Shown in pieces: positions 1 through 45,641 of a stretch of DNA of 64,000 nt. The notes beneath the pieces are model-generated. The model saw only the letters and a program-made list of their open reading frames with translations. It did no database searches and was not told the DNA's origin. A program made the position numbers and the translations under genes. Position 1 is the first letter of the stretch, and every line of letters starts with the position of its first letter. Source of the stretch: a virus (lineage: Duplodnaviria > Caudoviricetes); IMG/VR virus record IMGVR_UViG_3300033463_006083, positions 52,724-116,723 of that record; one strand, written 5' to 3'.

Positions 1-999
1 AAGAATTACAGGTCCTATTCAGCTATCATTTCCTCCAACTTTTCATTTTGATACATCTAATGACTGTAAATTATAACAACCTCAAAACATAGAAACATAA
101 TCTTGTACTTTATTCATATCTCAATTAGAAACATCTAAAGTTGTTAGATTTTGACAATAACCAAAAATATTATTTAAATTTTTTACATTACTTGTATTTC
201 AATTTGAAACATCTAAAGCTGTTAATGCTTGGCAACCATAAAATGCATAAGCTAAACTATTAAAATTAATAGTGTTTCATTTAGATACATCTAAAACTGT
301 AATTTTATTACAATTACTAAAAATACTAGATAAATATTGAAAATTACTAGTATCTCATTCAGATACATCTAATGCAGTTAAACTATTACAATTATTAAAT
401 AATTGATTTAAAGATTGTAATTTATTTGTATTTCAATTAGATACATCTAAAGCTGTTAAGTTTTTACACTCTTTAAAAGTTGCAAAAGCACTTGTCACAT
501 TATTTGTCTTTCAATTAGAAACATTTAAAGCTAATAAATTGGAGCATCCAGAAAATGTTTGTGCCATATCAATAACATTACTTGTATCTCAATTAGAAAC
601 ATCTAGTGTTGTTAAATTAGGACAAGTTGAAAAAGCTTGATTTAAACGTGTTATATTACTTGTATCTCAATTAGACACATCTAAGGTTGTTAAGTTTCTA
701 CAATTATGAAACATTCTAAAAACATCTGTTGCTTTATTTGTTATTCAATTTGATACATTTACACTTGTTAAATTAGAACAACTATATAGCATTTCACTAA
801 AATTTTGAATATTACTTAAATTTGGATTGACGAAATCTAATGATTCTAAAGGACACGTACCTGTACCTTGTCAAGGAAGAAATCTTGCAAGGTTAGATTC
901 ATTTAAAAAATTAACATTTAAAGTAATATTATGAATTGTTCGTACAGATGGATAAAATCCATAAGTACGTCCTGAAAAAGTAGCTCCTATATTAATCAT
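1..999 (-). CDS. DUF285/BspA-like leucine-rich repeat protein, copy 4 (runs off window edge; TGA=Trp)
   Basis: ATG at 999 after GAAGGAG RBS. Reads MINIGATFSG...; ~26-aa repeats LTTLDVSNW(D/N)TSN....F..C.N with W mostly encoded by TGA. Absent from ORF track. Confidence 0.85.
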
Positions 1000-1000
1000 A

Positions 1001-4000
1001 TTAATTTTCATCTCCTTCTTCAATAGTAATGTCTGTAAATTGTAATGTTGTATCTTTTATAAAATTAACTAAATCATTATAATTATTATAAGTTATTGTT
1101 GACGAACCTCCATTAGTATCAACATATGTTAAATTATAAATTGGAGGTGGATTATAAGTAACAACTAAATCAACATTTCCCACAGGCATTACTCCATTAC
1201 ACCAATAATTATTTCCTTGAATAGTTCAGTCAGTAATTGTTGGACTTTGAACATTATACTCTTGTTGATAATCATAAATACCAGAATATGCAGTTGCAAT
1301 TTCTGTTCCATTTTTATCACAATATTTAATATTTAATCTTCATTGTTCATTTTCAGTAGTTCAACCACTAGCTCTTAATTGATCTATTAAAGAAACTCCT
1401 ACTGTATTAGACATAATTTGTTTGCTAGATCCATAAAAAGGACTATATTGATTAGCATTCCTTAAATTTTTATAAGATACAGATACATTAGTAGCTGTTA
1501 AACACATATTACAAATATTTTTTAAAGAAGCTAGTGTTAAACTATTACAACCTCCAAACATTGCACTAAGATCTGTTGCATTAATAATATTCCAATTATT
1601 AACTAATGCAGATTGTAATTTTTGACAACCGTAGAAAGCATAACCTAAATTTATCATATTTTTAGTATCTCAACTTCCTACTGAGAAAGTTGTAACATTA
1701 TTACAACTGTAAAAAGCTCCATATATATTTTGCATTTTTCAAGTATTTCATGTACTTGTATTCATAGTTGTTAAATTTTGACAATTGTAAAAAAGATAAT
1801 TTAAATATACTACATTATTAGTTTTTCAATCATTAGGAACAATTTGAGTACTCTTTAATCTATAACATTGTAAAAAAGTTCCACTTAAATCTATAACATT
1901 TGAAGTATTTAAACCCTTGGTATTAATAGTAATTAAATTATAACAATGAGCAAAAGTTCAACATAAATTCGTTACATTACAAGTATTTCATGTATTAACA
2001 CTATTAAATATTGTAATATTAGTACAATAAGTAAATGTATCATACATACTTGTAACATTTGAAAGATTCCATCATTGAGTATCAATTCTTGTCGCAGCGC
2101 GGCAATTATAGAAAGCTTGATCTAAATTTTTCATATTTAAAGTATTTCATGTAGATCCATTAATTTCATTAAGTACTAAACAATTTTTAAATGTACAAAA
2201 CATAGTATTTATATTACTCATATTTCATAATAAAGTATTAATATTAACCAATTGTTTACAATTGAAAAAAGCTTGCGAAATATCAGTAACTTTATAAAGA
2301 TTTCAATTATTAGTGGTTAAATTTACAAATGCTTGACAATTATAAAAAATACGATTTAAATCTGTAGCATTTATAAGATTTCATTGTGAAACATCAATAG
2401 ATGGCATTTGATAACATTGTAAAAAAGCAGCTTGTAAATTTTGTACATTTTCTAAAGTTCATCTTCCAGTACTTAAGGCGGAAGTAAGACTTCATAAATG
2501 AGCAAAAGTTCAAGTTAAATTTGTTACTTTAGACATATCTCAAGTTCAAGTGTTTAATTTAGTCAATTTAGAACAATGATAAAATGTTTGTTCCATATTT
2601 TCCAATTCATCAAAATCTCATCCTGTTGTATTTAATGCAGATAAATTATTACAATTATAAAAACATTCTCCAATATGTTTAACTTTAGGAAATTTTCAAT
2701 GAGAAGTATTTAATGTTAATAAATTTTGACAATTATAAAAACCGGCATAAAAATTAGTACAAAATTCAGGATCCCAACTTGACGTATTTAAACTTGTAAT
2801 TTGATAAGCTTGGCAAAAAAGTCCTGCTAAATCAGAAACTCCTTTAATGTTTCATTGTGATGTATCAATTGATGTTGCTCCTCATAAATGAGCAAAAGCT
2901 CATTCTAAACAGTAGGCATTGCTAAAGTTTCAATTATACACATTTAAACTTGATAAACTGTTACATTTATAAAAAATACCATAAAAATTTTGTCCATGAT
3001 AAACATTTCAATTAGCAACATTTAAACTTGATAATAATTGACAACCTCAAAATACATCAGCAAAATTTGTAACATTTGAAGTGTCTCAAGTTGATAAATT
3101 TAATGTTGTAAGATTATAACAATTATTAAACATAGAAGCCATATTTGTCAAATAAGAACTTGATTTTCATTTTGCAATATTTAAAGAAGTTAAATTTCGA
3201 CATTCATCAAAAGCAAAATCTATATTTTTTACATTTGCTATATTTCATTGAGATAAATTTAAAGTTTTTAAATTATATGAGCCTCTAAAGGTAGAATTTA
3301 ATTGTTCTACATTTGCAGTATTTCAATTAAATAGATTTAATCCTGTTAAATTATAACAATAAGCAAATGTATTTGTCATATTTTTAACCTTAGAAACATC
3401 TCAATTAATAAGATTTAAACTTGGACATGATATAATTCCATAAAATGTACCCCTTAAACTTTTTACATTACTTGTATCTCAATTAGATACATCTAAATTA
3501 GGCAATGCATAACAACCATCAAATAAATATGCAAAACTTTCAACATTAGAAACATTTCAATTAGATACATTTAATTCAGCTAATTTAAAACAATTAAAGA
3601 AACAAGAATATAAATTTGTTACATTTGATGTATTTCAATTAGAAGTATCTCCTATAGTTGTAAGATTAGTACAATTATCAAAACTACTTATTAAAGAAGT
3701 AACATTATTAATTTTTCAATTTGAAAGATTTAAACTTGTTAATTTACGACAATTTTCAAAAGCATTTGCCATAGAAAGCACGTTTATAGTATTTCAATCA
3801 GAAATATCTAAATATTGTAAATTTTGACAATTAGCAAATAGCATTTTTAAACTTGCAACATTATTTGTTTTTCAATTACCTATATTATTAACATATTGTA
3901 AATTATGACATTCATTAAAAAGCATTTGTAAGTTTTGAGAATTATCAAAATTTCAATTATCTATATTAAAAACAGTTGGCATATGACAACCATCAAACAC

Positions 4001-5101
4001 TGAACCAAAATTAGTAACATTGTTAGTATGCCAATTATCCACTTTAAAATCTATTAAATTATAACAACCATCAAAAATACTACTTAAATTAGATACTTTA
4101 TCAATATTTCAGTTAGATACATCTAAATGCACTAAATTACGACAATTTCAAAACATATGAGAAAGACTTTCTACATTTGTAGTATCTCAATTAATAAGAT
4201 TTATATTTCTTAAATTATAGCATGCGCTAAAAGTCTTGTTCATATTTGTAACATTACTTGTATTTCAAGTAGAAACATCTACATCGGTTAATTTACTACA
4301 TTGTTCAAAAGTTCCTGTTAAATCTTTAACATTATTTATATCTCAACTAGCAAGATTAAATTCTATTATATTAGAACAAGCTCCAAATGTTTCTGCCATA
4401 TCTGTAACATTAGAAACATTCCAATTTGATACATCTAAATTCTTTATATTTCAACATTCTGCAAATAAACCATGTAAACTTTTTACATTATTAACAATTC
4501 AATTTGAAACATCTAATGTTTTTACTTTTCGACATCCATAAAAAGTATTTGCTAAATTTTGTAAATTATTTAATTGTCAATTTGAAAGATTTAATTCTCT
4601 TAAATTATAACATCCTTTAAAGGTATTTGATAAATTATTAATTTTACTAACATTTCAATTAGATACATTTAAATGCTGTAAATTTTGACAATTATAAAAA
4701 GCATCTTCTAGATTTGTTAAATTACTAGTATTTCAATTTGAAACATCTAAAAATCTTAATAAAGAATCATTTCAAAAAAGATTACTAATACTTGTAATAT
4801 TACTCATATTCATTTGAGAAAATCCGCCAAGAGTTTTTAGAGATGTAAAATTTGCAAAAGAATAGTTTATATTAACAATATTATTTAAAGAATTTTGACT
4901 ATCCCCCAATAACATAAGCTCGGTATTTATAGGAGCCCCTTCTTGTTGATTAATATCATCTGTAAAAATATCTAAACGATTATTTAAAGATTTAGATCAA
5001 TCTAAATCTAATATTAGATTTTTACAATTTGGAATAGTAGAATTCATACTATTAAGTGATGATAAAAATAAATTTTTATAATTAAAAGGTGTTGCACTCA
5101 T
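1001..5101 (-). CDS. Large DUF285/BspA-like LRR protein (~1366 aa) with C-cap and extra C-terminal domains (TGA=Trp)
   Basis: ATG 5101 with AAAGGAGG RBS; TAA at 1001. Track ORFs 1001..1189 and 1361..1657 share the frame, as do spot-checked TGA codons at 4733, 3167, 2459 and 1748. Roughly 40 repeats of ~78 nt. Confidence 0.85.
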
Positions 5102-5192
5102 TACAATTACCTCCTTTTTCATTTTTTATCTATAAATATATGATTTTTCTATTAAAATAATAAATTACTTTAGACCAAAATAAAAAAGAGAG

Positions 5193-6338
5193 CTATTTAC
5201 TCTCTTCTTCATCAATAGTATAAACATACCCTTCTTTACCAAGAACTCCAGATTTTTCATCAAGCTCTTTAACCCAATCAGGAAGTCTATCTCTTATTTC
5301 ATCAAATTCTTCTTTTCCTCTGTAATCTTCAGTTTTTATTTTTTCTAAAAATTGAAAGAAAGTAATTTGAGGAATAATACCAATCATATCTTGAGAATGT
5401 CCTGCATATTGCATTGTATACATACTTTTTAAAATATTCTCATCAATTTGATCTTCAATTTGTTTATAACAAGAGTGATAAAATCTTTTAGCATTAAATA
5501 AATTTTCTTCTGCAAACATAGGTTTTTGCTCTAAACATTGAACATATGTAAAATATTGACCTATCATCATTTCAACAGTAAACTTCATAATACTACCATT
5601 AAAAGGGTTTTTCTTTTTACAAAATTTAATTGCATTAATAGACGCGGCAGTTGCTCCTACTTGACATAAATCTCAATTATAAAGTGGAGTACCATTATTC
5701 TCTTCAATACCAATTCGAGTGATAGAATGTTCAGAGCCTTTTCGCCATAAATAAACTATTTTTTCAACAAAATTAATTTTTACTGGGAAACCTTCAATAG
5801 AAAGACGGACTTTCCAATTTAATTCCCCATCCTCCATAGCTCTTAATTTTGAAAATCTAATATCATTTGATTTTAAAAATTGTAAATTATATAATCTTCC
5901 AAATACTCAAGGATGTCCTTCATCCATTCTTGGCATCATACGAACTTTCATAGGATTTGGATCAACTTCTTGACAAAATATCCCTCTTACTTCAATACAA
6001 TCAGGTGTAATTCCATCTCTTAAGTTTTCAAGAGACATTGGATCATAAAATACATCATCTGCATCTATCCAAGTTATTCATTCAGTTTTTGCGGCGTCCG
6101 CACATCTTTGACGTGCTAATCCAGGTCCTGTATTTACTTCGCAATCTAAAATTGTAATATCTAAATCAGGAAATCTTTCTTTAACAAAATCATAGCTATC
6201 ACCTGGATTATCATTTGCAATTATTATCGCAACATCATTTTTAATAGATTGAATTTGAATAGAAGAAAGACAATCACAAATATGAGGTTGTGCTTTAAAA
6301 GCTGGTATTCCTACCGTTATTAATTTTTTATTTGACAT
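5193..6338 (-). CDS. Family 2 glycosyltransferase (GT-A fold), ~381 aa (TGA=Trp)
   Basis: Track ORFs 6078..6338 and 5193..5588 are in one frame. N-terminal ITVGIPAFK, N.GPGLARQ, then EWITWIDADD (DxD motif) once TGA is read as Trp. Confidence 0.85.
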
Positions 6339-6361
6339 ATCTTTTTTCTCCTTCTAAAATT

Positions 6362-6390
6362 ATTATACAATATTTTTTAAAAAAAGTCAA
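6362..6390 (-). promoter_or_regulatory. Sigma70/SigA-type promoter for the glycosyltransferase
   Basis: TTGACT-17 nt-TATAAT on the minus strand, ~24 nt upstream of the ATG at 6338. Confidence 0.75.
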
Positions 6391-6393
6391 AAT

Positions 6394-6419
6394 AAAAAAG
6401 AGTAGTTTTTACTACTCTT
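6394..6419 (-). terminator. Intrinsic terminator after LRR gene 6418..9492
   Basis: AAGAGTAG/CTACTCTT stem followed by a T-run on the minus strand. Confidence 0.65.
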
Positions 6420-9400
6420 AATTTGTTTTTCATCCTGCTGCAGTTAATTGTGTTATTAAATCTTGTCCTACTGTTGTAACATTAATTTGTTTATTTGTTG
6501 TATAAAGTGGACTTCTAATGTTCGTATTCATTAAATTTTTATAAGTAGTAGTCATATTTGTTAAATTTAAAGCAAATTTTGCAATACTCACCAAACTATC
6601 AGTAGTTAAATTATTACATAAGCCGAAAGCGTTATTTCAAGTTATTAAAGATGGTAAAGATGCATTTGAAATATCTAAATTTACTAAATTAATACATCCT
6701 CTAAAAGTGTTATATCAATTTGCCATGTTTGGTAAATTTCAATTACATATATTAACATCTGTTAAATTTTCACAACCTGTAAAACAAAAAGGCATTGAAG
6801 TTGCATTTAAAAATGTTAAATCAGGAATATTAATATCTTTTAAATTGAAACAAAGACCATAGCTGTCATATAAAGAAGTAACAGTATCTAAATTTCAATT
6901 TAATAAAAAATTAAGATTTGTAATATTAGAATTAAAAAAAGTATATGCTAATCATCACACATTATTAGTTTTTCAACTGTCTAAAAAATAAAAATTAAGA
7001 TTTCAACAATTTCTAAAACTATTAGAAAGATCCATAACAGAAATAGTATTTAATGTTTCTGCTCCATATAAATTTTTTAAATTAAAACAATTAGAACAAA
7101 AATCAGTTAAGTTAGTATAGGTAGATGAAAAATTCATATTATCAATATTAACATTAACTAATGATTGTGCATTATTTAATAAAGGTAAAGCATTTATACT
7201 ACTATAATTATTTCAAGATCAATTTGACATATCTAAATCCGTAAGATTAGTTAATCCATCAAAAAACCTATTTCCATCTCAACTAAAACTATTTGAAACA
7301 TTTCAATTTGCAATATTTAATCTTTGTAAGTTAGTGCAGTAACTGAATATATTTCCATTATTAGCGAAATCAGTAATATTACAAAAATTTAAATCTTGTA
7401 AATTTACCTCTACTAAATTCGTACAATTCCTAAACATAGCACTAATATTAATTGCTTTTTGAAAATTTCAATAATTTTTTAAATTATCAATTGAAATTAA
7501 ACTATTACATCCAGAAAAAGTAAATACAAAAGAAAGAACATTACCAGTATCTCAATTAGCAAGAGGATCAAGATTTTTAAAATATATAGTATCTGTAAAA
7601 GTTTGTAATAAAGTATGTACATTAGAAGTATCTCAATTAAGAATATCATCAAAATTAAAATTTTTACAATTTTGAAACATACCTCCTAAAGTAATTGGTA
7701 TTCAATTTTTAATACCTTTTACAGTGTTTAAATTATTACAACCATGAAATAAAAAATTACACTTATTAGCAACCTGTTGAAAGTTTAATGTTTCAAGATT
7801 CAATTCAGTTATATTTTGACAACCATCAAACATTCACTCTATACTAACTGCATTACTTCAATTTCAATTAGATAAATCCAAGACAGAAAGATTATTATCA
7901 TAATAAAACATATATGAAAAATCTTGTACCTTATTAACTTTTCAGTTAGATACATCAATTGTTTTTAAACTGTTACATCAATAAAGAAACCTATGTAAAT
8001 TAATTGCATTATTAAAATTTCAAGTAGATAAATTTAAGGTAGTTAAATTTGTACAAGTACTAAACATCTGTGCGAAATTTTCTCCCGAAGAAACATCTCA
8101 ATCATTAACATTTAAACTATGAATATAATTATCTCCATAAAAAGTAGATGAAAAATTATTAACTTTTGACACGTCTCAATTATTAATATAAATATAATCT
8201 GCTCATATTCTTGAAAGACTTGAAGATAATTTTGTTAAATTACAAGTATTCCAATCATCAATATTTAAAGTAATTAAACGTTGTAAATTATTAAAAACCC
8301 CTTGAGGAATATATGTTAAATTGCACACATTTCAATTTGGAATCTGTAAATTAGTTACATATTGACATTCTTTAAAAACATTATTCATAGAAGTCATTGG
8401 ACTGAAATCTCAATTAGGCATACTAATTTTACTAATAATAGCATTATACCATAAATTATCTATATTTTTTATATTAACAGCAGTTCAATTTTCTATGTTA
8501 AATCTCAAAATATTATCCATATTTAAATTACTAAAAAAATTATAAAGACTAACACCATCTAATACTCAATTATTTGCATACAATCTTTTCATATTATTAT
8601 GTATTAATCTTCCTATAGAAGAATTTGTAATATGCCAATTTTCTGCGTAAATTATATTAGGATATGATCCACTCATAGAAGTATTTATAATGGTTCAATT
8701 ATTCATGTCAAATCGTACATTATTACCAGATCCAACTAAACTTGTAACATATGCATTGTTAAATACTCAATTTGATAAATTAATATTTGAATTTGTTAAT
8801 CAACAAAAAACACTAGCAGCATAATTAAGATTGTTTGTATTTCATTTTGAAAGATCTAAATTTCAATTATTTCATGGACAAAAAGGGGTGTATAAATTTT
8901 TAAGATTACTAACATCTCAATTAGAAATATCTGGTGGCTGTAAATTATGACAATAATTAAAAGTATAATACATATTTGTTAAATTGCAAGTATTTCAATT
9001 TGAAACATCTAACATTGTTAAATTATTACATCTAGTAAAAGTACCTTGTAAATGTGAAATATTACTAGTATCTCAGTTGGATACATCTAAAGTTGTTAAA
9101 TTATTACAATAAGAAAAAGTATATCATAAATTTTCTAAATTGCTAGTATTTCAATTTGAAACATTTAATGTTGTTAAATTTACACAACCCGAAAAAGTGC
9201 TCTTCAAATTTTTAATATTACTAATATCTCAATTAGCAACATCTATTTCATTTAAAAAATAACAAGTGTTAAAAGTTTGATCAAGATGTTCTATTTTAGA
9301 AAAATTATTCAAAATAATTTTTTTAGTATTAGCTCCATATGGACCAATATAAGAATTTTCTTCTTTCGGAATTAAGAAAAAATCATTCATAGATAAATCT

Positions 9401-9492
9401 TGAGCTTTTTCTCAGTTTAAATCTAAAAATCAATTATTACAATTATCTAAATAATTTTCTATTAAAATATTTTTATAATTATATTTTTTCAT
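6418..9492 (-). CDS. DUF285/BspA-like LRR protein (~1024 aa; TGA=Trp)
   Basis: ATG 9492 after GGAGGTG; TAA at 6418; length divisible by 3. Starts MKKYNYKNIL..NCNNWFLDLNWEK, has NW-containing repeats, ends ..QDLITQLTAAGWKTN. Absent from ORF track. Confidence 0.8.
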
Positions 9493-9511
9493 TGTATTAT
9501 TTTACACCTCC

Positions 9512-11749
9512 TTATTCTGTAAAACTAATTTTAAATTGAAATTTATTTGTTGTAGAAGTTGAATTATTATAAATTCTATATTTAATTTCAATAAAATGTT
9601 CTTCATCATCTAAATCTGTATAAACGACTTTTTGTACTGCGGTAGATGAAGCTGTTCCAGAAAAACTTTTTTTAACATTTGTACTTTGTTCAGAACTATA
9701 ATAATTTCGTACTAAAGTCTTATCAACATTAGATAAAATTCCAAAATTATTAGTAGAAGAAGTGGTTTGATTAATACAACTAACAACTAATTTTCCTGTA
9801 TTTGTTTTAAATTTTACTTTACAAAGAGCATAACTATAAGATTTTCCAGTATTACCACTTGTATAATATCCAGTATTTGAATTTAACGTAAAATCATAAG
9901 GCGCATAATACAAACCAGTTTTATCAATAGGCTCAACAACATACTCTCCATCTATATAAGGAACAGATGTAATTTCAACATTTTGAGAAACTGTATTTTG
10001 TTCATCATCTTCTAAAGTAATATTTATTACTTCATTTCCCTCTCCAATACCTGAAAATTCAATAGAAATACAAGCATTGGTTTTATCTAAAGTAGAATTA
10101 ACTGTATAAATAGAAGTTTCTTCAGGAGACACACTTATAGAAAAATTATTAGGATGATCATCAACTTCAAAACCTCCATATAAAATATTTAATGTTTTAG
10201 TTCTTGTATTCATAATAGTATAATTATTAATAATTTCTCATGTTAAATTTTGACATACTCTAATATTTGTTAAATCATTACGACTATTTAAAAACATCTT
10301 TTTCGTAAGAACATTAGAAACATATATATTACAATTATTCATAAGCCCTTCAAAAGCATACTTACATTTTAATCAATTGGTAGAATATATCGTATCAAAC
10401 TGACAATTATTTAAATAAAGATTTTGTAAATTATTACAAAAACTAAAAGCATATCATAAATCAGCAACATTTTGAACATTTCAATTAGATAAATTTAATT
10501 CAGTCAAATTATCACAATAACGAAAAGCTCCATATAAATCAATTAAATTATTTGTTTGTCAATTAGAAACATTTAACTCAGTTAAATGATTACAACCAGC
10601 AAAAGTCCAACTTAAATTTGTTAAATTACAAGTATTTCAATTTGAAACGTCTAAATTTGATAAATTATTACATCAATAAAACATATATGCAATATTATTT
10701 AATCTAGATGTATTTCAATTTGAAACATCTAAAGTTGATAAATTATAACAGGAAAGAAAAGTATCTACCGCAGATTGTAATTTACTAGTATTTCAATTTG
10801 AAACATCCAAATCTCTTAAATTCTCACAATAGTAAAAAGCATAATTTAAATCAATTAAATTATTTGTTTGTCAATTAGAAACATTTAAAGTTGTTAAATT
10901 ATTACAATAATAAAAAGTTCCATCTATTAATCTTAAATTACAAGTATTTCAATTAGAAACATCTAAATTTGTTAAACCACTACAAGAAGCAAAAGTATTA
11001 TATAAAACTTTACAATTAGAAATATTCCAATTAGATACATTTAAATTTGTAAAGCTTTGACAACCTTCAAATGTTCGATTTATACTTTTTAAATTACTAG
11101 TATCTCAATTTGAAACGTCTAAATCTGCTAATACTCAACATCATAAAAAAGTATTATTCATATACTTTATGTTACTAATATTCCAATTAGAAACATCTAA
11201 ATTTGTTAAATTAGAACAACTATGAAAAACACTATTAAACATTTGTGTGCTTTGTAAATTTCAATTTGATATATTTAAATCTGTTATATTATAGCAATAC
11301 ATAAAAACATTATCTCAATTTTTAATTTTACTTACATTTCAATTTGAAATATCTACATTTCTAAAATTATTACAACCATAAAAAATTCCATTAAGATTAT
11401 GTATATTTTGTAAATTTCAATTGCAAAGATTTATATTATTTACCATATAGCAATTAGCAAACATATAATCTAAATTTGTAACATTTTTCATATCTCAATC
11501 TTGAAATTCAATATTATCTAACTGATAACAATAATAAAAAGCACGAGATAAAGAAGTATTTTTAGGAAAACCACTCTGAACATTAATATTTAAATTTGTA
11601 AGACCTGACATACCATTAAACATGAACTCTAATCCAGTAGAATGTTTTCAATTTAAATTTAAAATAATATTAGGACAATTTCAATCAAATAATGCATGCT
11701 GATATGTATACCTAGCATCCATTAATAAATTATTATATTCATATAGCAT
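9512..11749 (-). CDS. DUF285/BspA-like LRR protein with a beta-rich C-terminal domain (~745 aa; TGA=Trp)
   Basis: ATG 11749 after GGAGG. In frame with track ORF 9512..10213 through TGA at 10238. About 15 regular LDVSNW repeats. Confidence 0.82.
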
Positions 11750-11756
11750 ATTTTTC

Positions 11757-12617
11757 CTAACCTCCTTCTTCCTCATCTTCTACAATTTCATCTTCTATTA
11801 TTAAATCAGCTAAAGCGTTTGCATAAGGTTGTAATAAATTTTGAACTTCACTAACAGAATTACAATAGGTTACAGTATATTCATCTTCTGCATTTGCACG
11901 ATAACTAACTTTAAATCTGACCGTTGCCTCAGGAGGTTCTTGATTAAACACTAAAACTCCATCAAAATAACTATTATAAGTATTGTTTGTATTCATAACT
12001 AAATTTTCAACTAATTGTTGATTAAAGATAATTTTTGGATAAATTTTTCCTACAATATATTCATTATAAACTATTGGACCTTGTGACATAGTAATAGAAA
12101 TATCTGTAGCTGTTAACATAGTTGGAGAATTAGTTTGATCAGTAAGTTTTTCAAAATCATCATATATTTCTGTTATAAAAGTTTGTCCATTATCTTCACT
12201 ATATGTTAATTCAAAAATATCTTGACTTTCTAAAATTTTTAATTTTAATAAAGCCACTCCATTTAAATCTGTATCACTTACTCTTGGTGTTAATACTGCA
12301 ACAGTAGGTTCTGATGGAGTAATAAATATATCTGTGGCGGTTATTATATCATTAGAATTCATTTTAGTTACTAATAAATCAAAATCATTATACATTTCTG
12401 TTGTAAAAGTCTGTCCACCATCATTACTATATTTTAAAACAAAAACATCTTCATTATTATTATTATTATTATTATTAGTTTCTGTTTTAGCTTCTAATCA
12501 CTGAGTTCCATCATATATATAATATTTATCTAAAGTTATATTATAATAACAATCTTCTCTTACAGGATTTTCAGGTGCCATATATAAATTAGGCACTATA
12601 GGTACATCATCATACAT
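11757..12617 (-). CDS. Acidic hypothetical protein with internally repeated LxYSxDxGQTF.TE.Y.DF module (~286 aa)
   Basis: ATG 12617 after AAAGGAGG. One TGA (..YDGTQW..) joins it to track ORF 11757..12395. Short poly-Asn tract. Confidence 0.75.
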
Positions 12618-12706
12618 ATTAATACCTCCTTTATTAAAATATGAAAAAATGCTCCTCTCTATTATTTATTTTAGCCCAAAATAAAAAAGAAAGCAAGTTG
12701 TTACAC

Positions 12707-13144
12707 TTACTTTCTAGGTATCTTCATAAAATAACAATAAACTTTTTCATCTATTGCATCTTCATCTTTTATAAAATCTTTACTAAACTTAGCATACCAT
12801 TCTACATTTTCTTCAAATAAATCATGATAATCATTATATGCTGAATTCATTACAATTCAAAAATCAACAGGTCTAATTTCAGAATATCCATAAGAATTCC
12901 TAACACCTTCAGTGTCAGCTAATTCTCATTTTTTACCATATGGTTCCATACATTCAATAATTTCTCTTGCTTTATCCTCTGTTAAAACGCGGCCTTCCGC
13001 AATCTCATATAATTTTTCTTCAACTTTTTCTAATTCTCTATCTCCAACCATATCAATAATATATTCCATATAATCAGACATTTCATCTATCTTTTTTGAA
13101 TCACCAGAACTAATGATTTTATTTATATATTTTTTGTAGTCCAT
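12707..13144 (-). CDS. Uncharacterised protein, last gene of the six-gene operon (~145 aa; TGA=Trp)
   Basis: Track ORF 12926..13150 continues through TGA: ..PYGKKWELADTEGVRNSYGYSEIRPVDFWIVMNSAYNDY..KVYCYFMKIPRK then TAA at 12707. Confidence 0.75.
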
Positions 13145-13331
13145 CTTCAATTTTTTCCACCTTTCTTAATACTTCATTTAACAATCTATTTTGATATTCT
13201 AATTTATGTTCCATATCAAAAATAATTGTATCTAGCTTTCTACTTTGAGATTCATTTTCTTCATACGAATGAAGTGATATATATGACAATAATACAGTTA
13301 ATAAATCTAATGCATCAAGATTTTCTTTCAT
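13119..13331 (-). CDS. Small hypothetical protein (hydrophobic N-terminal helix plus coiled coil)
   Basis: Track ORF; TAATG coupling to the upstream gene. Confidence 0.65.
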   Translation of the reverse strand: MKENLDALDLLTVLLSYISLHSYEENESQSRKLDTIIFDMEHKLEYQNRLLNEVLRKVEKIEDGLQKIYK

Positions 13332-13687
13332 TATACACTTCCTGCAGGTTCTGTCAATTGTCCTCTAGGTTTTACACAAGAGGTAATTACAAATTGACCA
13401 TTTTCATAATTATCATTTCCGCTACCATACATAATAGGATATCTTACTCTTGTATTTAATTGATTTGCATACATAGTATTTCCAGCTTTACATAAAACAG
13501 GAATATCTCCTACATTAGTTCTTATAAAAACAGGTAAATTCGCGGCCGCAGCTACATTATTGCATATAACGAGTCCATAAGTTTCTGTATTAACTAGATT
13601 TTTTACTGCTCTATTAGGAATTAAAATTACTTCCTCCTCAGTAGTTTCTACAGTTGAGCAAAAAATTGTTTGACAGTAATTATTCAT
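13331..13687 (-). CDS. Cys-containing beta-rich hypothetical protein
   Basis: Track ORF with AAAGGAG RBS. Confidence 0.7.
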   Translation of the reverse strand: MNNYCQTIFCSTVETTEEEVILIPNRAVKNLVNTETYGLVICNNVAAAANLPVFIRTNVGDIPVLCKAGNTMYANQLNTRVRYPIMYGSGNDNYENGQFVITSCVKPRGQLTEPAGSV

Positions 13688-13770
13688 TTTTCAATCTCCT
13701 TTCTCAACAAAAAATAGCGGAAGCACCTGGCCTCCGCATGTCGACTTGCAAAAGCAAGGATTAAGTTAAA

Positions 13771-14340
13771 CTAGTATAAAGAATTACATCCACAACCAGT
13801 ATAGCAAGGTGGATTTAATACATATCTACCTTGTAAATTTAAAATTGTGTCTGTTGAGTTTTGTACAGCAGCAGTTAAAGTAGCTGTTTGATTTGCATTA
13901 GATAAAGCATCTCTTGTAGTTTGAAGTTTATCACTTAATTCTCTGATATAATTATCTTGAATCATTTGTCTTGTAGCAGCATTTTCAGTTGTTACTAAGT
14001 TTCCAATTGCGGCAATACTATTGCTAATTTGTTGTTGAATATCTTTCATAGCAACTAAATTACTATAATTGCTTGTTAAAACAGTATCAGTTAATGCGCA
14101 TTGACCTTGAGCTAATCCTCTAATAGCATTATCTTGTGATTGAAAATATAAACTATTTTGAAGATCACTTTGTCCTAAAGCTGTTGCTCCATTATTCCAG
14201 AAACCACCATTTCCGCCAAATAATAGAATGAAAATAATAATTAATGAGAAAATTCCCATAGAACCACCAAATAATCCATCGTTATTATCTCTTGTTAATG
14301 CTAATACATCTGCAGCTGACATTCCAGTATTATCGTTCAT
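13771..14340 (-). CDS. Gly-rich single-TM protein with coiled coil and Cys-rich tail (CYTGCGC)
   Basis: MSAADVLAL..GGSMGIFSLIIIFILLFGGNGGFW.. then Q/N-rich helices; RBS GGGAGG. Confidence 0.75.
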   Translation of the reverse strand: MNDNTGMSAADVLALTRDNNDGLFGGSMGIFSLIIIFILLFGGNGGFWNNGATALGQSDLQNSLYFQSQDNAIRGLAQGQCALTDTVLTSNYSNLVAMKDIQQQISNSIAAIGNLVTTENAATRQMIQDNYIRELSDKLQTTRDALSNANQTATLTAAVQNSTDTILNLQGRYVLNPPCYTGCGCNSLY

Positions 14341-14391
14341 CTTCTTCCTCCCTTTCCTTAAAATATTTATAATAAAAAGCTAGTCACGTGC

Positions 14392-14610
14392 CTATCTTCT
14401 ATTACCATTAATTAAATTAATCATTTGCACAAATTGTTCTTTTGAAATTCCTTTTTCATTACACATTTGCGCAATACTTTCCGCTTGTTTTTCTGTTGGT
14501 TGGCTTTTAATTGTATTAAAAAGTTGTAATTGTTGCGGATTTAGTAGACTTGTTAGCGCTTGCTGTGGTTGACTTGATAGTAGCATCTGTGATAGTATGT
14601 TCTGCATGTT
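14392..14610 (-). CDS. Small Gln/Asn-rich protein
   Basis: Track ORF 14392..14616 (MINMQNILSQM..PQQ..NPQQ); the exact start is uncertain. Confidence 0.6.
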   Translation of the reverse strand, partial: NMQNILSQMLLSSQPQQALTSLLNPQQLQLFNTIKSQPTEKQAESIAQMCNEKGISKEQFVQMINLINGNRR

Positions 14611-14986
14611 TATCATCCAATCTCTCCTCCAATTCTTTTATTTTCTTTTCTAATTCTTCAATCTTAATATCTTTTTCATCTTTAGGAACTATAATATTAT
14701 AAACTTTAGATATATTTCCATCTACTTCCTTAATAGATATTTTAGAATTTGGTTCATCAATAAACAGAGTTTTTTTAGATACTATAATATTAGATATATC
14801 TTCATTAGGTTTAACATATCGTATATCCGTATCTGAATTACTACCTGTCGCATTAATAATATTTTGAACAGGCGGCTGCGTATTAATTCCCATATTTTGA
14901 GTATATTGAGCTATCATATTTTCAATATTCTCTTTTTGACGATACAATTGATTCATCAATCCCGCATTATTGTAATTATAAGGCAT
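14516..14986 (-). CDS. Hypothetical protein, first gene of the six-gene operon
   Basis: ATG 14986 (MPYNYNN..) after GAAAGGAG. N/Q-rich N-terminus, beta-rich middle, coiled-coil end. Confidence 0.7.
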   Translation of the reverse strand: MPYNYNNAGLMNQLYRQKENIENMIAQYTQNMGINTQPPVQNIINATGSNSDTDIRYVKPNEDISNIIVSKKTLFIDEPNSKISIKEVDGNISKVYNIIVPKDEKDIKIEELEKKIKELEERLDDKHAEHTITDATIKSTTASANKSTKSATITTF

Positions 14987-15018
14987 ATTTAATCTCCTTT
15001 CCATTTTTTAAACAATAT

Positions 15019-15058
15019 AAAAAAGCCAGGCATTAGGAAAATAGACCTAATGCCTGGC
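15019..15058 (-). terminator. 13-bp GC-rich hairpin plus T-run upstream of the six-gene operon (possible attenuator)
   Basis: GCCAGGCATTAGG / CCTAATGCCTGGC perfect stem followed by TTTTTT on the minus strand. Confidence 0.7.
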
Positions 15059-15182
15059 TATGATATTTCGTTATAATTTATCTATCCATTTGTTTCAATC
15101 CATTTCCCTTTATCAGAGTTTTCTCTCTGACATATATATTTTATTTTTAATTTAAATAAATTATCAAATTTGTCCCAAAATT

Positions 15183-18100
15183 TTATGCATCTGTGCTATC
15201 GTTAGTAATATATAATGTATGAGTATTAGGATCTAGTCTAGTTCTAATACCACCTGTTACATTATAATCTGAATTAGGAACAGTCATTGTTGATTGTCCT
15301 GTTTCAATAGTAATATTACCATATCCTAATAACGAAGTACCATTAATTGTTTTAATATTTGTCCCACTAACTAATTCTGCTTGTTTTTCATCCCAATAAG
15401 TAATTTTTGCATCTGTAATATCATATGCTGGACTTGCAGTAAATACAGGATCAGTTTCAGAAGTAATAAATCCACTGTCATTTGTTAAATCACTTACTTT
15501 TGTTGGAATTGTAGGAAGATTAATTAAATCATTATAATCTCCTGTTGTGGCAACACTAGCTAAATCAGAACTTAATGTATAATAAGTTAAATTATTAACT
15601 GCATTTGTAATATATCCCGCATTATTAGTTAAATCACTCGTATCAGTAGGTAAATCAGTCATTCTAGCTAATCTAACTGAGCCAGCATCTTTACCAGTTC
15701 CAGATGTAGAATCTACATATACATCTCCTTGATATCAAGCTTCTCCTGTTCAAGTTAAAGTATGTGCATTTGATCTTGCGTCATCCGCAGTACCATTACC
15801 AACTATATGAGCATATACATTTGACCCACTAACTATATTATATTTACCTTGAACATGTTGATTATTACTCAATGCTTCTGTATAATATCCTTCAGCATGT
15901 GAATAAATTCCACTTGCCACAGTATTATTTCCTTCAGCATGTGAATAATCTCTTGAAGCTATACTATTATTTCCTTCTGCATGTGAATAAGTTCCTGAAG
16001 CTGTACTACTATTTCCTTCTGCATGCGCACCCATTCCACTTGCAGTTGTATTATTTCCTTCAGCATGTGCTTGTGCTCCGCTAGCTTCAGTAGTTCAACC
16101 TTCTACATGAGAATAATTACCAGAAGCTTCTCCTGATGCTCCTTCTGCATGTGCAGCAGTTCCAGATGCAAGAGATGAAAAACCTTCTGCATGAGAATAA
16201 TCACCAGAAGCTTTTGTTGAAACTCCCTCTGCAACAGCACCATTTCCAATAGTATAATTTGTTCCTTCTGTAGAAGAACCAATTGTTCTAACACTTCGTG
16301 GTTGACTGCCATTAATCCAATTACTATTTGCTAATGATGGATTTGAACCAGCTGTTACATGTCCTTTATTGTCAACAGTAACAGATGTATATGTTCCAGC
16401 AACAACTCCTGATGTAGCATGAGATAATGTTCTAGTACCACTAGTTGTAATTGCTAAATTATCATCAATAACAATTGGACCAGTTGCATTTAAAGTAATA
16501 CTTGTAACAGTACCACTTGGTTCGTCACCAGATGGAATCAATATCCAGCCAGTTCCATTACTAATAAACATATCTCCTACTTTTGCATTTTGACTTGCAT
16601 AAGTACCATCTGTAATAACTTTATATGTAAAACCACTATTTGCAGCTGCAGCCGCAGGTAAACTAGTTATCGTTCCTCCTGACCCTAAAGAACCTTTAAA
16701 TACCATAAAACCAGGAAGTGCGGCAATAGCTGAATCTACATAAGCTGTAGTTGCAACTTTAGTTGAGTTATCTCCACTTTGTTGAGTCGTAGCCGTAACA
16801 CCATTTGTAATAGCACCAGTTAATATTGAAGCTGGTACTGAAGTAATATTAGCTTGACCTGATGTAGCAACACTAGTACCATTAACCGCTACTTCTGTAA
16901 TAGTACCTGTATTAGTTGTATATCCTTGATTAGTTGCGGCAGTAACTCTACCATAACTATCAACTGTAATTCCTTGATAGGTTCCTGCAGTAACACCTGA
17001 AGCATCTAAAGCTATCGTTCCTGTCGTCGTGATATCTCCACCCGTAAGACCAGTTCCCGCAGTTACTTTAGTTACGGTTCCTGTATTAGTTGTATATCCA
17101 CTATCATTTGTAAATGCACTTATATTAGTTGGAATATCGCTTGTTTTAGCAAGTTTAGAAGAACCAGAAGTTTGACTTGTTCCTCCTACATAAACATCAC
17201 CTTTATATCATGCATTACCATTCCAATCAACAGTGTGAGCATTTGAACGAGCTGATGTTCCTGTTCCATTACCAATTATATGTGCATATGTATTATTACT
17301 ATCTAATATATTAAATTTACCTTCTACATGTTGATTTTGTCCAGTTGCTGTTGTGTAACGACCTTCAGCATGTGAAGTTTGACCACTTGCTGTAGTATAA
17401 TATCCTTCGGCATGAGATCCATTAGTTCCACTTGCTGTAGTATAATACCCTTCAGCATGTGCTTGTGTTCCGCTTGCGGTTGTTGTATTACCTTCGGCAT
17501 GAGACGCACTACCAGAAGCCTTAGTTCCAGTACCTTCCGCAAAAGCATAAGTTCCAACTGAATAACTTGAACCATCTGCCATAGCATAAATTGTTCTTAA
17601 ACTACCTGAGGCATTTGCATTTACTAAATTACTATTTACTTCGCTTGTTAAAAATCCACTATCATTAGTTAAATCACTAACTTTAGTAGGAACAGTAATA
17701 TTAGCAACTGCATCTGTATTTGAATTTGCTGTAAAATCAACTATTTTAGTTCCATTTTTTTGAATTGTTAATTTTGCATCATTAACAACAGGAATTGTAG
17801 GTTTATTTGTTAAATCTTCATAGTTTCCACTAAAATCACTTTTAGCATTTCACGCAGTTCTTTCTGCGGCAGTTATAAATTTATGAGTTTTATTAGTATC
17901 ATCAACTAAATCACTGCTTAATTTATTTGAACTTGTTATTTCTGACTGTAAACCACTAACTAATCCACCAACAGGAATATCAATTGTATTACCATTTTGT
18001 AAGGTTAAAATAATCTTTTTATTTGTTGAATCATATTGACCACTGACAACAACAGATTCAAGAGGTAAATCAATAGTACTTGAATTTAACACTGTACCTG

Positions 18101-18683
18101 CACTATTTTTTAATTTTGCAGTAATCTTATAATCTGTAGTATTTACAGATAGTTCTATTTTATTACCTGTAGCAGTTTTTAATTCATAATTAGTTAAATT
18201 ATTAACATCTTTTGTAATAAAACTAGAAACATCTGGTATGTCGCTAATATTTGCCTTACCATTTCAATAATTAATATTTGTATTTGTGATGGTTGCAGCA
18301 GGACTTCCTCAATATCCAGAATCCACACGTTCATAATGTGCATTACCATTAGGATCGTTTGCTGCGGTTACAAAGTAATAAAGTTGATATTTTTTGTCAT
18401 TGGCTGTCCCAGAAGAAAGTTTAAGCGCATATAAAACATCATCTTTCCCATTCGCAACAGAAGGTAAACTATTAACAAACAATAATGCCATACCATTTCT
18501 TAAAGTAATATCATCAGGAGGTGTAATCATATCCATACTATTAACTATTGTTCATGAAAGAACGCCTTCTTGTGAAATAGAAGGAACAAAAATATCACCT
18601 TTATCACCTTTCGCATAAAGGTCTACCTCAAGATAATTTTTCCCCTCAATAGGATTACTCATAACAGAATTATTATCATCCAT
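15183..18683 (-). CDS. Tail fibre/adhesin with YadA-head-like SHAEG repeats (~1166 aa; TGA=Trp)
   Basis: Six track ORFs (15183, 15750, 16095, 17208, 17850, 18309) share one frame. ATG 18683 after AAAGGAGG. 14-aa xHAEG..T.ASG repeats and KVSDLTNDSGF repeats. Confidence 0.82.
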
Positions 18684-18809
18684 GCTATAAAACCTCCTTT
18701 TATATTTTTATATCATTTTTCTTTTTCTCACTATAATAATATTTAAAAATACATAAGATAAATAAATTATTTTAGACCAAAATAAAAAAGACAATGTTTC
18801 CATCGTCTT

Positions 18810-21800: not shown

Positions 21801-22286
21801 ACTGTTTCGTGAAATAGCACTTGCTAAAGTTAAATTTGTTCCATATGTTTTAGTTTGAGCACTTGGAGTAGAAGATCCTCCGTTTGCATTGTAAGAAACT
21901 GTATATGTCGTATAAGACATAGGGATATCAAAATTAAAAGTTAATGTATTTGGAGTAGAAGCACGTGCCTGAACTGTAAAATTTAAAGTTACACTATTCC
22001 CAGTTAAACCGGTTCAAGTTAAAGTTTTACTTAATAAAGCATCTTGATAGCTAGTATTATTAATACGCACATGTTTAACAACAGCACTTTGTCCAGATCC
22101 ACCACATGTAAAAGTTCTAGTTTGATCAATATCATAATATGCACCATAACCAGCTGATGTACTACTATAAGCTTTAAATTCTAGTTTAGTTAAACTAACA
22201 GTACCATTTTGAGCGGTATATGTTATACGAGCAACACCACCTCAGTTTTTTCCACTAAAGGTAACTCATTTTTCCAATGTAGCCAT
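18810..22286 (-). CDS. Multidomain virion adhesin-like protein (~1158 aa): Listeria/Bacteroides (InlB B-like) repeats, FN3-like, fibrinogen-like and lectin-like domains (TGA=Trp)
   Basis: ATG 22286 after AGGAGG; TAA at 18810; in frame with track ORFs 20319 and 21696. Repeats VTFNANGG...GW...TLYAQW; WARIFYHNN segment; C-terminal LDYIQS..QWIDTG...PCKRIRDNKVGLYD. Confidence 0.75.

Positions 22287-37304: not shown

Positions 37305-45641
<8,337 letters not shown>

What the first reader, a model, noticed from the sequence alone, without database searches (positions are those of the whole stretch)
1..12617. Array of four giant paralogous DUF285/BspA-like LRR genes with shared caps: a candidate variable-receptor system
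Seen: about 10 kb encodes four LRR proteins (>333, ~1366, ~1024, ~745 aa), nearly invisible in the standard-code track. The 26-aa framework (L..LDVSNW.TS....L...F..C..) is fixed while the residues between differ in almost every repeat. Three share an N-cap (Y.N......NC.N..L(D/N)L(N/D)W). Two share a C-cap (LT..SL..I....L..TN....YKNL.N.N..SP.Y...KQI...TVG..LI.QL.A.GW). Inference: a phage-borne repertoire of cap-repeat-cap binders, architecturally reminiscent of VLR or internalin solenoids. No signal peptide is evident and the units sit behind the putative late-promoter motif, so they may be virion-displayed receptors or intracellular binders such as anti-defence decoys.
Basis: partly seen in the sequence, partly recalled or inferred. 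Interest (0 to 1): 0.8.

Follow-up and report, generated by a model that had tools for sequence, protein, structure and literature searches.

The report
Recoded phage's four LRR adhesin-like genes
Four large leucine-rich-repeat genes, readable only when TGA means tryptophan, sit with a glycosyltransferase in the tail-fibre region of a cattle-gut phage; they look like bacterial surface adhesins put to the phage's own use, not like a self-diversifying receptor system.

Summary
Under table 4 the minus strand of window 1-11776 encodes four DUF285/BspA-type LRR proteins. They are A (673 aa, starting left of the window), B (1373), C (1024) and D (754). A GT2 glycosyltransferase lies between C and B, and a non-LRR gene (P0006) is coupled upstream of D.

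The contig is a 116.7-kb TGA-recoded tailed phage with its own tRNA-Trp(UCA). Its lysins (CW_7, M23) point to a walled Gram-positive host.

All 59 canonical 26-aa repeats are distinct on a fixed framework. B, C and D share the N-cap. A, B and C share the C-cap, so three genes carry it, not two. The cap is family-wide (1103 database matches). B continues into a MucBP-fold domain, which is the architecture of a tested Lactococcus adhesin.

The variable-receptor reading is not supported. The contig has no reverse transcriptase and no long identical repeats. Contigs from two independent studies are colinear with the array at about 92-96 % identity.

Relatives keep the GT2 next to, or fused with, an LRR protein in the receptor-binding slot after the tape measure.

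Best reading (about 0.5): late-made adhesin-like proteins, probably virion-borne accessory binders linked to glycosylation. This is a new member of a known kind whose function is untested.

The parts
1..1023 (-). LRR gene A, N-terminal 341 codons. The full gene is 673 aa and continues left of the window (genome 51725-53746). It has its own type of N-terminus and a C-cap at its far end. The start is probably the ATG at window 1011, by comparison with P0007.
1001..5122 (-). LRR gene B, 1373 aa: N-cap, about 34 repeats, C-cap, MucBP-fold domain, small bbab terminal module. 51 in-frame TGA.
4994..5086 (-). N-cap of B (NC.N..L[DN]L[ND]W type)
1337..1612 (-). Last repeat and helical C-cap of B
1151..1345 (-). 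MucBP-fold beta domain of B (model residues 131-195)
   Evidence: (weak Pfam, 17.9 bits); counterpart P0007 scores 48.7 bits
1013..1141 (-). C-terminal ~45-aa bbab module of B, also present 3x in P0006
5160..5198 (-). Terminator T-tract plus shared element TTTTTTATTTTGGTCTAAA upstream of B
   Evidence: family D15
5193..6338 (-). GT2-family glycosyltransferase (381 aa, DADD motif), 55-68 % identical to homologues in seven other phage contigs
6362..6419 (-). Terminator hairpin (6419-6398) followed by a sigma70-like promoter TTGACT-17-TATAAT (6390-6362) in front of GT2
6418..9492 (-). LRR gene C, 1024 aa: N-cap, regular then degenerate repeats, C-cap (6421-6672). 44 in-frame TGA.
9512..11776 (-). 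LRR gene D, 754 aa: N-cap (11645-11743), about 14 repeats, then a non-LRR all-beta C-terminal domain (9515-10369) of unknown kind. No C-cap.
11757..12617 (-). P0006, 286 aa, non-LRR, three copies of the ~45-aa module. Overlaps the start of D by 20 nt, so it is co-transcribed and probably translationally coupled.
12661..12715 (-). Terminator hairpin plus shared element TTTTTTATTTTGGGCTAAA upstream of P0006. Start of the unit P0006-D-C.

Best explanation
The locus is a set of four old paralogous DUF285/BspA-type LRR genes plus a GT2 glycosyltransferase. It is organised as three late transcription units (P0006-D-C, GT2, B-A) inside the tail-fibre and host-recognition region of a ~117-kb TGA-recoded siphovirus-like phage of a walled Gram-positive gut bacterium.

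Shown: the proteins are non-secreted cap-repeat-cap solenoids. At least B ends in a MucBP-fold domain, which is the domain plan of Gram-positive surface adhesins. They can be translated only after the phage's tRNA-Trp(UCA) has switched the code, because almost every repeat carries a TGA.

Inferred: they act outside the cell after lysis as carbohydrate- or surface-binding adhesins. Most likely they are mounted on the virion as accessory receptor-binding or adhesion proteins that widen or strengthen attachment to host wall glycopolymers or gut mucus. The neighbouring GT2 works in the cytoplasm on the same module, for instance by glycosylating fibre or LRR proteins before assembly.

The repeats differ because they are ancient and only the framework is constrained, not because the locus diversifies itself.
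For: Identity and code. DUF285 scores lie far above the cut-off. Long ORFs exist only under TGA=W. W9 is TGA in 82 of 90 motif instances. The genome carries a tRNA-Trp(UCA). Early plus-strand genes have 0-1 in-frame TGA. None of 42 late genes ends in TGA. LRR genes have TGA:TGG of 141:13 against 132:79 in the other late genes, odds ratio 6.5, p 8e-11.

Context. Fibre genes lie upstream, and a PHROG 'tail protein' (2.5e-10) lies downstream, on the same strand.

Adhesin architecture. The B C-terminus model has pLDDT 86.8. Its best solved matches are the MucBP adhesins YwfG (4e-5), MUB, LBA1460 and lmo0835, all at probability 1.00. Counterpart P0007 has Pfam MucBP at 48.7 bits. A Lactococcus protein with DUF285+MucBP+Big_3 contributes to adhesion to mucin-coated and bare polystyrene (PMC5071367; abstract and passages read).

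The cap as a distal end of longer phage proteins. In P0019, P0022, P0024, P0046, P0071 and P0082 the DUF285 repeats and the cap close long proteins. The N-terminal halves of three of them hit PHROGs 13589 and 38337, and the same three of the 7 N-terminal halves tested match a gene of relative L004.

GT2 linkage. In 4 of 7 GT2-anchored relatives an LRR_5 protein is adjacent to the GT2 (L001, L002, L007) or fused to it (L004). In the other 3 the neighbours are fibre-like proteins, one with a Peptidase_G2 chaperone domain. In L004 the fusion follows tape measure, tail protein and a 1130-aa ORF.

Export. No export signal is present.

Precedent. Goslar virion-associated DUF7941 proteins carry LRR/beta-helix or carbohydrate-binding domains behind a shared N-terminal module (bioRxiv 10.64898/2026.04.21.720040; passages read).
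Against: There is no direct evidence of virion incorporation and no RNA or protein data. No recognised virion-attachment domain was found in A-D or P0006. LRR solenoids are usually monomeric whereas fibres are trimeric (general knowledge). In Butyrivibrio phage Bo-Finn the DUF285-type gene lies between the replication genes and the small terminase, not in a tail module.

PHROGs 13589, 38337, 17273, 9915, 22899, 3649 and 29123 are all 'unknown function'. Gene C shows only generic LRR similarity to the relatives' GT2-linked LRR_5 proteins (E 1e-5 to 1e-6), so the GT2 linkage here is positional, and a terminator separates C from GT2. The sequence-level MucBP score of B is below the Pfam cut-off (17.9 against 23 bits).

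The strong TGA bias could simply follow the very low GC of these genes (22-25 %).
Confidence: 0.5

Rival explanations
1. Soluble late proteins that are not part of the particle. They are released at lysis and bind host surface or debris, for example to mask receptors and stop progeny from adsorbing to dead cells, or they bind the surrounding matrix.
For: No virion-attachment domain was recognised. There is no export signal, so release would be by lysis. The adhesin-type MucBP fold is present. Expression is late and TGA-locked.
Against: The genes are embedded between fibre and tail genes rather than next to the lysis genes. In other proteins the same LRR and cap form the distal end of long phage-type proteins.
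Confidence: 0.15
2. The LRR proteins are partners or acceptors of the glycosyltransferase. The solenoid either recruits the substrate for GT2 or is itself glycosylated in the cytoplasm, and the locus is primarily a glycosylation system. This is not exclusive of the best explanation.
For: L004 carries an LRR_5-GT2 fusion, and L001, L002 and L007 have the two genes adjacent. The GT2 is conserved at 55-68 % identity. A further dehydratase, GT2 and GT4 set lies 7 kb to the left, and both of its glycosyltransferase genes carry in-frame TGA. The LRR proteins hold 159 N-x-S/T sequons, at 3.7-5.1 per 100 aa against 2.9-3.2 expected from composition. Glycosyltransferases need nucleotide sugars and so act before lysis (general knowledge). 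Phage glycosyltransferases suggested to glycosylate the capsid are in print (PMC11256854, abstract in a search listing only).
Against: In 3 of 7 relatives the GT2 has no LRR neighbour. The DUF285 genes here are not orthologues of the linked LRR_5 proteins. Sequon enrichment is modest and is part of the family framework. No test of binding or activity was possible.
Confidence: 0.15
3. Intracellular binders of host proteins, such as anti-defence decoys or take-over factors.
For: There is no signal peptide. LRRs commonly bind proteins (general knowledge).
Against: Their timing is the latest possible: 141 in-frame TGA make them untranslatable before the code switch, whereas early genes avoid TGA. 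MucBP is an extracellular adhesin domain. The genes lie in the tail region.
Confidence: 0.08
4. Passenger genes recently taken from a TGA=W mollicute or other bacterium, with no role for the phage.
For: These genes have the lowest GC of the genome, 22-25 % against 27-35 %. DUF285 is named after Mycoplasma. TGA use is extreme.
Against: The reading frames are intact up to 1373 aa. The array is kept colinear at 92-96 % identity in two other studies. Counterparts with the same N-termini and caps occur in other metagenome contigs. No lipoprotein or signal sequence is present. This cap subtype was not found in one genome each of 185,579 bacterial and archaeal species by two peptide patterns (weak because W was back-translated as TGG).
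Confidence: 0.07
5. A self-diversifying variable-receptor system, of the VLR-like cassette-assembly or DGR-like mutagenesis kind.
For: The framework is fixed with variable residues between. Several paralogues share caps.
Against: PF00078 finds nothing on the contig. The repeat units are only 60-73 % identical as DNA, and no copy exceeds 84 %. The array is colinear in contigs of two independent studies, with divergence close to that of the flanks. The paralogues are 27-37 % identical.
Confidence: 0.03

Closest known systems
BspA-family / DUF285 (PF03382) LRR proteins annotated in phages and giant viruses
   Same: Same Pfam family and 26-residue repeat. 95 phage records hold a tblastn match to gene C, several at multiple places per record. 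[quoted passage not shown] Aureococcus virus is reported to have 38 DUF285 proteins (PMC10720644, passages read).
   Different: None of these has a tested function. Here the genes form a four-gene block with a GT2 inside the tail region, one carries a MucBP fold, and all are TGA-recoded.
Lactococcus lactis IBB477 AJ89_07570 (DUF285 + MucBP + four Big_3), a cell-wall adhesin
   Same: DUF285 followed by MucBP. [quoted passage not shown]
   Different: The bacterial protein is exported and wall-associated and has Big_3 domains. The phage proteins have no signal or anchor and far more repeats.
Listeria internalins (InlA, InlB)
   Same: Cap-LRR-cap solenoid used for adhesion. InlA is the best solved match of the D model, but weakly (E 6e-4, TM 0.13-0.19). 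MucBP domains occur in Listeria surface proteins (lmo0835 among the hits).
   Different: The repeat is 26 aa, not 22. The coil has three short strands. The C-cap is helical rather than an Ig-like inter-repeat domain. There is no signal peptide and no LPXTG or GW anchor.
Lamprey VLRs and DGR variable proteins
   Same: Fixed scaffold with variable surface residues.
   Different: No cassette donors, no reverse transcriptase, a stable array. Concave-strand positions 5, 7 and 8 are conserved.
Goslar (Chimalliviridae) DUF7941 'fibre cloud' proteins
   Same: Several paralogous virion-associated proteins share an N-terminal module followed by carbohydrate-binding, hydrolase or LRR/beta-helix domains, and are proposed for host recognition (bioRxiv 10.64898/2026.04.21.720040, passages read).
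   Different: No DUF7941 here, and a different phage lineage and host. Virion association was measured there and is untested here.
TGA-recoded gut phages (the 'Agate' and other clades of bioRxiv 10.1101/2021.08.26.457843)
   Same: Standard-code early genes, TGA=W late genes, a suppressor tRNA, low GC, an animal-gut source, and a size near the ~127 kb cited for Agate.
   Different: Clade membership was not tested, because no Agate sequence was at hand. The passages and section 8 that I read do not mention LRR genes. The supplements were not seen.

Membership tests
DUF285 (PF03382) / BspA-type LRR | Score above the Pfam gathering cut-off (25 bits) | tested here: met
   157.9, 506.5, 240.2 and 278.2 bits for A (window part), B, C and D. 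27 matches in the genome, all inside these genes.
DUF285 (PF03382) / BspA-type LRR | Tandem repeat of about 26 residues with the L..LD.SNW.TSNV....F..C framework | tested here: met
   Spacing is 26 in 59 repeats, with W9 100 %, F21 97 % and C24 90 %.
Exported bacterial surface LRR protein (lipoprotein or LPXTG type) | N-terminal signal peptide or lipobox, or a C-terminal wall anchor | tested here: not met
   Maximum hydropathy over 15 aa in the first 60 residues is 0.17-0.71, and no 19-aa window exceeds 1.44. No anchor family was found in Pfam.
MucBP (PF06458), for gene B | Pfam score above 23 bits | tested here: not met
   17.9 bits, E 0.0055. Counterpart P0007 scores 48.7 bits.
MucBP (PF06458), for gene B | MucBP fold | tested here: met
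   Model pLDDT 86.8. Foldseek probability is 1.00 to YwfG, MUB, LBA1460, lmo0835, PEPE_0118 and Spr1345, and to a viral 'MucBP domain-containing protein'.
Internalin family | 22-residue LRR, Ig-like inter-repeat domain after the LRR, signal peptide | tested here: not met
   26-residue repeat, helical cap, no signal. Only weak fold similarity to InlA.
Diversity-generating retroelement target | Reverse transcriptase and a template/variable repeat pair nearby | tested here: not met
   PF00078 gives 0 matches on the contig, which is estimated 78 % complete. No near-identical repeat pair was found.
VLR-like cassette-assembled receptor | Donor cassettes and rearranged or variable arrays among individuals | tested here: not met
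   Contigs from two independent studies are colinear over 877-10564 and 657-15220. Contigs cannot show rare variants.
TGA=W recoded phage with code switch | In-frame TGA at Trp positions in late genes, few in early genes, TGA not used as a stop, a suppressor tRNA | tested here: met
   (stops: TAA 30, TAG 12, TGA 0 of 42 late genes).
Phage receptor-binding protein or tail fibre | Physical presence on the tail, a baseplate-attachment domain, binding to a host receptor | not testable with these tools
   Only position is available: between fibre and tail genes, with the LRR-GT2 fusion in the post-tape-measure slot of L004.
GT2 glycosyltransferase (PF00535), for 5193-6338 | Pfam score above 23.3 bits and an acidic DxD-type motif | tested here: met
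   51.4 bits. DADD is invariant in 6 of 6 aligned homologues. Donor and acceptor are unknown.

The most novel reading that the evidence does not exclude
LRR solenoids capped by a phage-specific helical cap, some extended by MucBP domains, form a so-far unrecognised class of virion-mounted adhesins in gut and rumen phages. A conserved, sometimes fused, GT2 glycosylates them in the cytoplasm. The one-TGA-per-repeat layout acts as a >140-fold translational lock that ties their synthesis to the code switch. Such particles would stick to mucus or to several wall glycopolymers through interchangeable LRR surfaces.
Probability: 0.25. Interest if true: 0.65.

Novelty: new member of a known kind. Interest (0 to 1): 0.42.

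Why it matters
BspA/DUF285-type LRR genes are common in phage and giant-virus genomes, yet none has a demonstrated role. This locus gives a concrete, testable case. The adhesin-like domain plan (LRR, cap, MucBP), the position in the host-recognition region, and a glycosyltransferase that relatives keep beside or fused to an LRR protein together point to binding and glycosylation at the particle surface.

It is also an extreme example of stop-codon recoding. Four genes hold 141 of the 273 in-frame TGA codons counted in the 42 late genes, nearly one per repeat. That makes them a sensitive reporter for when and how the code switch happens.

It matters practically as well. Standard-code gene calling shatters these genes into fragments, and 66-aa pieces of the cap are already in public protein sets. 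Their abundance in viromes is therefore probably underestimated.

Tried and rejected
Searches for closer relatives that carry the array mostly failed.
- The search for related loci in viral contigs found nothing with P0006, the 699-aa downstream gene, gene A, P0007 or P0024.
- The three-sequence cap alignment gave one weak partial locus, L011, which I did not analyse.
- tblastn confirmation under the standard code probably breaks at every TGA, so these blanks are weak.
- The 5-sequence version found nothing in the genome collection.
- The search for homologous proteins on the cap region found nothing among proteins of 370-1178 aa, whereas the profile search without a word index found 1103.

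Other blanks and steps not completed.
- No RNA holder was listed for the region.
- Joints reported by read laying inside the array have sides of 31-37 letters at 80 % likeness, and I set them aside as cross-matches between repeats.
- The C-terminal 290 aa of D were modelled only at low confidence, and D had no PDB sequence match.
Only the repeat register and the DSSP strands were used.
- Counterpart comparison (A-P0007 48 %, C-P0009 36 %, B-P0010 39 % identity) shows that only framework positions are conserved. The repeat register between such distant proteins is uncertain.


Full report
WHAT IS THERE

Read with table 11, window 1-14000 has no ORF longer than 233 aa. Read with table 4 (TGA=W), the minus strand opens into a continuous gene set. 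In the direction of transcription the set is as follows.
- P0006: 11757-12617, 286 aa.
- D: 9512-11776, 754 aa.
- C: 6418-9492, 1024 aa.
- A GT2 glycosyltransferase: 5193-6338, 381 aa.
- B: 1001-5122, 1373 aa.
- A: 1-1023, which runs off the window.

The window is the last 64 kb of a single 116,723-bp virus record. In that record A is 673 aa. A, B, C and D all match Pfam DUF285 far above the cut-off. All 27 DUF285 matches in the genome fall inside these four genes, and every internal stop is TGA.

THE PHAGE

The same strand carries, from right to left: a sigma-factor-like gene, terminase, portal, capsid-region genes, a 2791-aa tape measure, a 1471-aa tail protein, two endolysins, several fibre genes, the LRR block, and then three more late genes including a PHROG 'tail protein'.

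The endolysins have a CW_7 wall-binding repeat and an M23 peptidase domain. I therefore infer that the host has peptidoglycan and is probably a Firmicute. The nearest terminases in named phages fit this: Enterococcus H1 and Geobacillus E3 at 43-45 % identity, and SPbeta-like Bacillus phages at about 30-33 %.

The left arm encodes 17 tRNAs, including tRNA-Trp(UCA) and a CUA-anticodon tRNA. Early plus-strand genes have 0-1 in-frame TGA, while late genes have many. No late gene stops with TGA: the stops are TAA 30 and TAG 12 of 42. This is the pattern described for TGA-recoded gut phages in bioRxiv 10.1101/2021.08.26.457843 (section 8 and passages read). The DNA is held by bovine-gut and other gut metagenome runs.

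THE REPEATS AND CAPS

I extracted 59 canonical 26-aa repeats, and all are distinct. W9 (100 %), F21 (97 %), C24 (90 %), L4, S7, L1 and N8 form the framework. Positions 22, 18, 19, 25, 3, 15, 23 and 2 are the most variable, at 2.9-3.6 bits.

The model of D gives three short strands per coil, at repeat positions 2-5, 10-12 and 16-18. Positions 5, 7 and 8 would face the concave side in a classical LRR strand, yet they are conserved (D/N, S, N). The variable residues lie in three stretches (2-3, 15-19, 22-25).

B, C and D share the N-cap. A has another N-terminus, which it shares with database protein P0007. A, B and C share the C-cap at 55-60 % identity. D instead has a ~290-aa all-beta domain that stayed unassigned. 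Overall the paralogues are 27-37 % identical.

THE CAP IS FAMILY-WIDE

A profile of the three caps finds 1103 representative proteins at E<=1e-3 and 127 at <=1e-10. Many carry the cap at the extreme C-terminus, and there are 66-aa fragments of the kind that standard-code gene calling would produce.
- P0007, P0009 and P0010 are counterparts of A, C and B, with the same N-termini, the same cap and, for P0007 and P0010, a MucBP-type tail. P0007 scores 48.7 bits for MucBP.
- In six other proteins the DUF285 repeats and the cap close a long protein.
- Of the 7 N-terminal halves I tested, three (P0022, P0024, P0082) belong to PHROGs 13589 and 38337, both of unknown function, and match a gene of relative L004.
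- Between counterparts only the framework positions are conserved (W9 0.91, F21 0.84). The variable positions are near random at 0.10-0.19.

THE ADHESIN PLAN

With a nine-row alignment, the last 244 aa of B fold confidently (pLDDT 86.8). The model shows the last coils, a helical cap, a beta domain and a small bbab module. Copies of that module occur three times in P0006.

The best solved matches are MucBP adhesins of Gram-positive bacteria: YwfG (4e-5), MUB, LBA1460, lmo0835, PEPE_0118 and Spr1345, all at probability 1.00. The best viral match is a 'MucBP domain-containing protein' of an uncultured siphovirus.

[quoted passage not shown] The phage proteins have no signal peptide, TM segment or anchor.

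NOT A DIVERSIFYING SYSTEM

No reverse transcriptase is found on the contig, which is estimated 78 % complete. As DNA the 78-nt units are 60-73 % identical to each other, and no repeat copy exceeds 84 %.

Contigs from independent studies are colinear with the array.

| Run and record | Window span | Differences | Gaps | Divergence |
|---|---|---|---|---|
| X3 record 15 | 877-10564 | 479 | 12 | 4.9 % |
| X7 record 24 | 657-5636 | 188 | 6 | 3.8 % |
| X7 record 25 | 5743-10667 | 393 | 13 | 8.0 % |
| X7 record 26 | 10645-15220 | 142 | 14 | 3.1 % |

X3 records over 10850-12761, 14400-16752 and 16723-17903, mostly flanking the array, differ by 4.2-4.4 %. Gene order and size are therefore stable, with at most a modest excess of divergence over gene C in one relative. 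Contigs cannot show rare variants, so within-population microdiversity remains untested.

TRANSCRIPTION UNITS AND THE TGA LOCK

An exact 19-mer, TTTTTTATTTTGGNCTAAA, stands upstream of P0006, of B and of the fibre gene at 15183-18683. Together with near matches there are 7 hits at up to 3 mismatches against 1.2 expected, and 0 of 100 shuffles reach 7. A further copy stands before the 166-aa gene to the left of the window.

The 5' part of the element is the T-tract of a terminator hairpin. GT2 has its own hairpin and a sigma70-like promoter matching 11 of 12 positions. D overlaps P0006 by 20 nt, C follows D after 19 nt, and A overlaps B. The units are therefore P0006-D-C, GT2, and B-A.

The LRR genes carry 141 TGA against 13 TGG, whereas the other late genes carry 132 against 79 (odds ratio 6.5, p 8e-11). 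W9 itself is TGA in 82 of 90 motif instances. These are also the most AT-rich genes of the genome, so the bias may be compositional.

THE GLYCOSYLTRANSFERASE LINK

Seven viral contigs carry a GT2 homologue at 55-71 % best-segment identity (55-68 % over the five aligned). All seven use the standard code.
- In L004 the GT2 is fused to the C-terminus of an LRR_5 (BspA-type) domain in one 1050-aa ORF.
- In L001, L002 and L007 a homologous ~900-aa LRR_5 protein lies directly upstream. The LRR_5 protein of L001 (the one compared) matches the L004 LRR domain at 5e-31.
- In L003, L005 and L006 the neighbours are fibre-like proteins, one with a Peptidase_G2 chaperone domain.
- In L004 the fusion follows tape measure, tail protein and a 1130-aa ORF, which is the usual place of siphovirus receptor-binding genes (the 'usual place' is general knowledge).

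Gene C is not an orthologue of those LRR_5 proteins (E 1e-5 to 1e-6), so the slot is conserved while the LRR subtype differs. Glycosyltransferases need nucleotide sugars, so I infer that the GT2 acts in the cytoplasm before lysis. A further dehydratase, GT2 and GT4 set lies 7-10 kb to the left, and both of its glycosyltransferase genes carry in-frame TGA.

VERDICT

The best-supported reading is a block of late, adhesin-like LRR proteins. They are probably virion-borne accessory binders, functionally tied to a conserved glycosyltransferase, in a TGA-recoded phage of a Gram-positive gut bacterium (confidence about 0.5). Every functional step is inferred.

The variable-receptor interpretation is not supported. 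BspA/DUF285 LRR genes are already widely annotated in phages, so this is a new member of a known kind. Three features deserve a bench test: the MucBP extension, the LRR-GT2 linkage, and the one-TGA-per-repeat layout.

My six literature searches found no functional study of a phage DUF285 protein. Supplements were not seen.

Noticed in passing
own genome left of the window, G000:C1:138-5454 (locus L009): An array of 17 tRNA genes on the minus strand. It includes tRNA-Trp(UCA), which is unusually long at 96 nt, beside a normal tRNA-Trp(CCA). It also includes a CUA-anticodon tRNA, although TAG still ends 12 of 42 late genes.
   Followed up: partly
window 18810-22286 (-): A 1158-aa late gene with Listeria-Bacteroides repeats (Flg_new, 3.7e-17) and 29 in-frame TGA. 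This is a second bacterial surface-protein domain type in the fibre region.
   Followed up: partly
own genome G000:C1:42402-45650 (+), locus L008:1403-4648: A sugar module on the early strand: a Polysacc_synt_2 dehydratase (1e-64), a 405-aa GT2 and a GT4-type glycosyltransferase. The two transferases carry 11 and 6 in-frame TGA, unlike their standard-code neighbours.
   Followed up: partly
L005:8363-10642 and L006:8368-10642: In two relatives the GT2 gene is split into two ORFs (185 and 203 aa) by a 220-aa ORF whose N-terminus looks like a GIY-YIG homing endonuclease. The motif is recalled and was not tested.
   Followed up: no
window 18771-18789 (-): A third exact copy of the 19-mer TTTTTTATTTTGGTCTAAA, between the Flg_new gene and the 1166-aa fibre gene. 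This suggests a repeated terminator-promoter cassette that punctuates the late region.
   Followed up: partly
window 5743-10667: In run X7 the contig over the GT2 3' part, gene C and the end of D differs by 8.0 %, against 3.1-3.8 % for the contigs on either side. Run X3 does not show this excess, at 4.9 % against 4.2-4.4 %.
   Followed up: no
window 37296-45671 (-) and 11757-12617 (-): Long poly-asparagine runs: 23 N in the tape measure and 8 N in P0006.
   Followed up: no
window 60837-61925 (-): A sigma-factor-like gene (PHROG 5767, 6.6e-51) with a C-terminal zinc-ribbon/HNH-like stretch stands at the head of the late strand. It may read the shared upstream element.
   Followed up: no
window 12707-13150 (-): A small gene matching DUF7841 (6e-8) stands just upstream of the P0006-D-C unit.
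   Followed up: no
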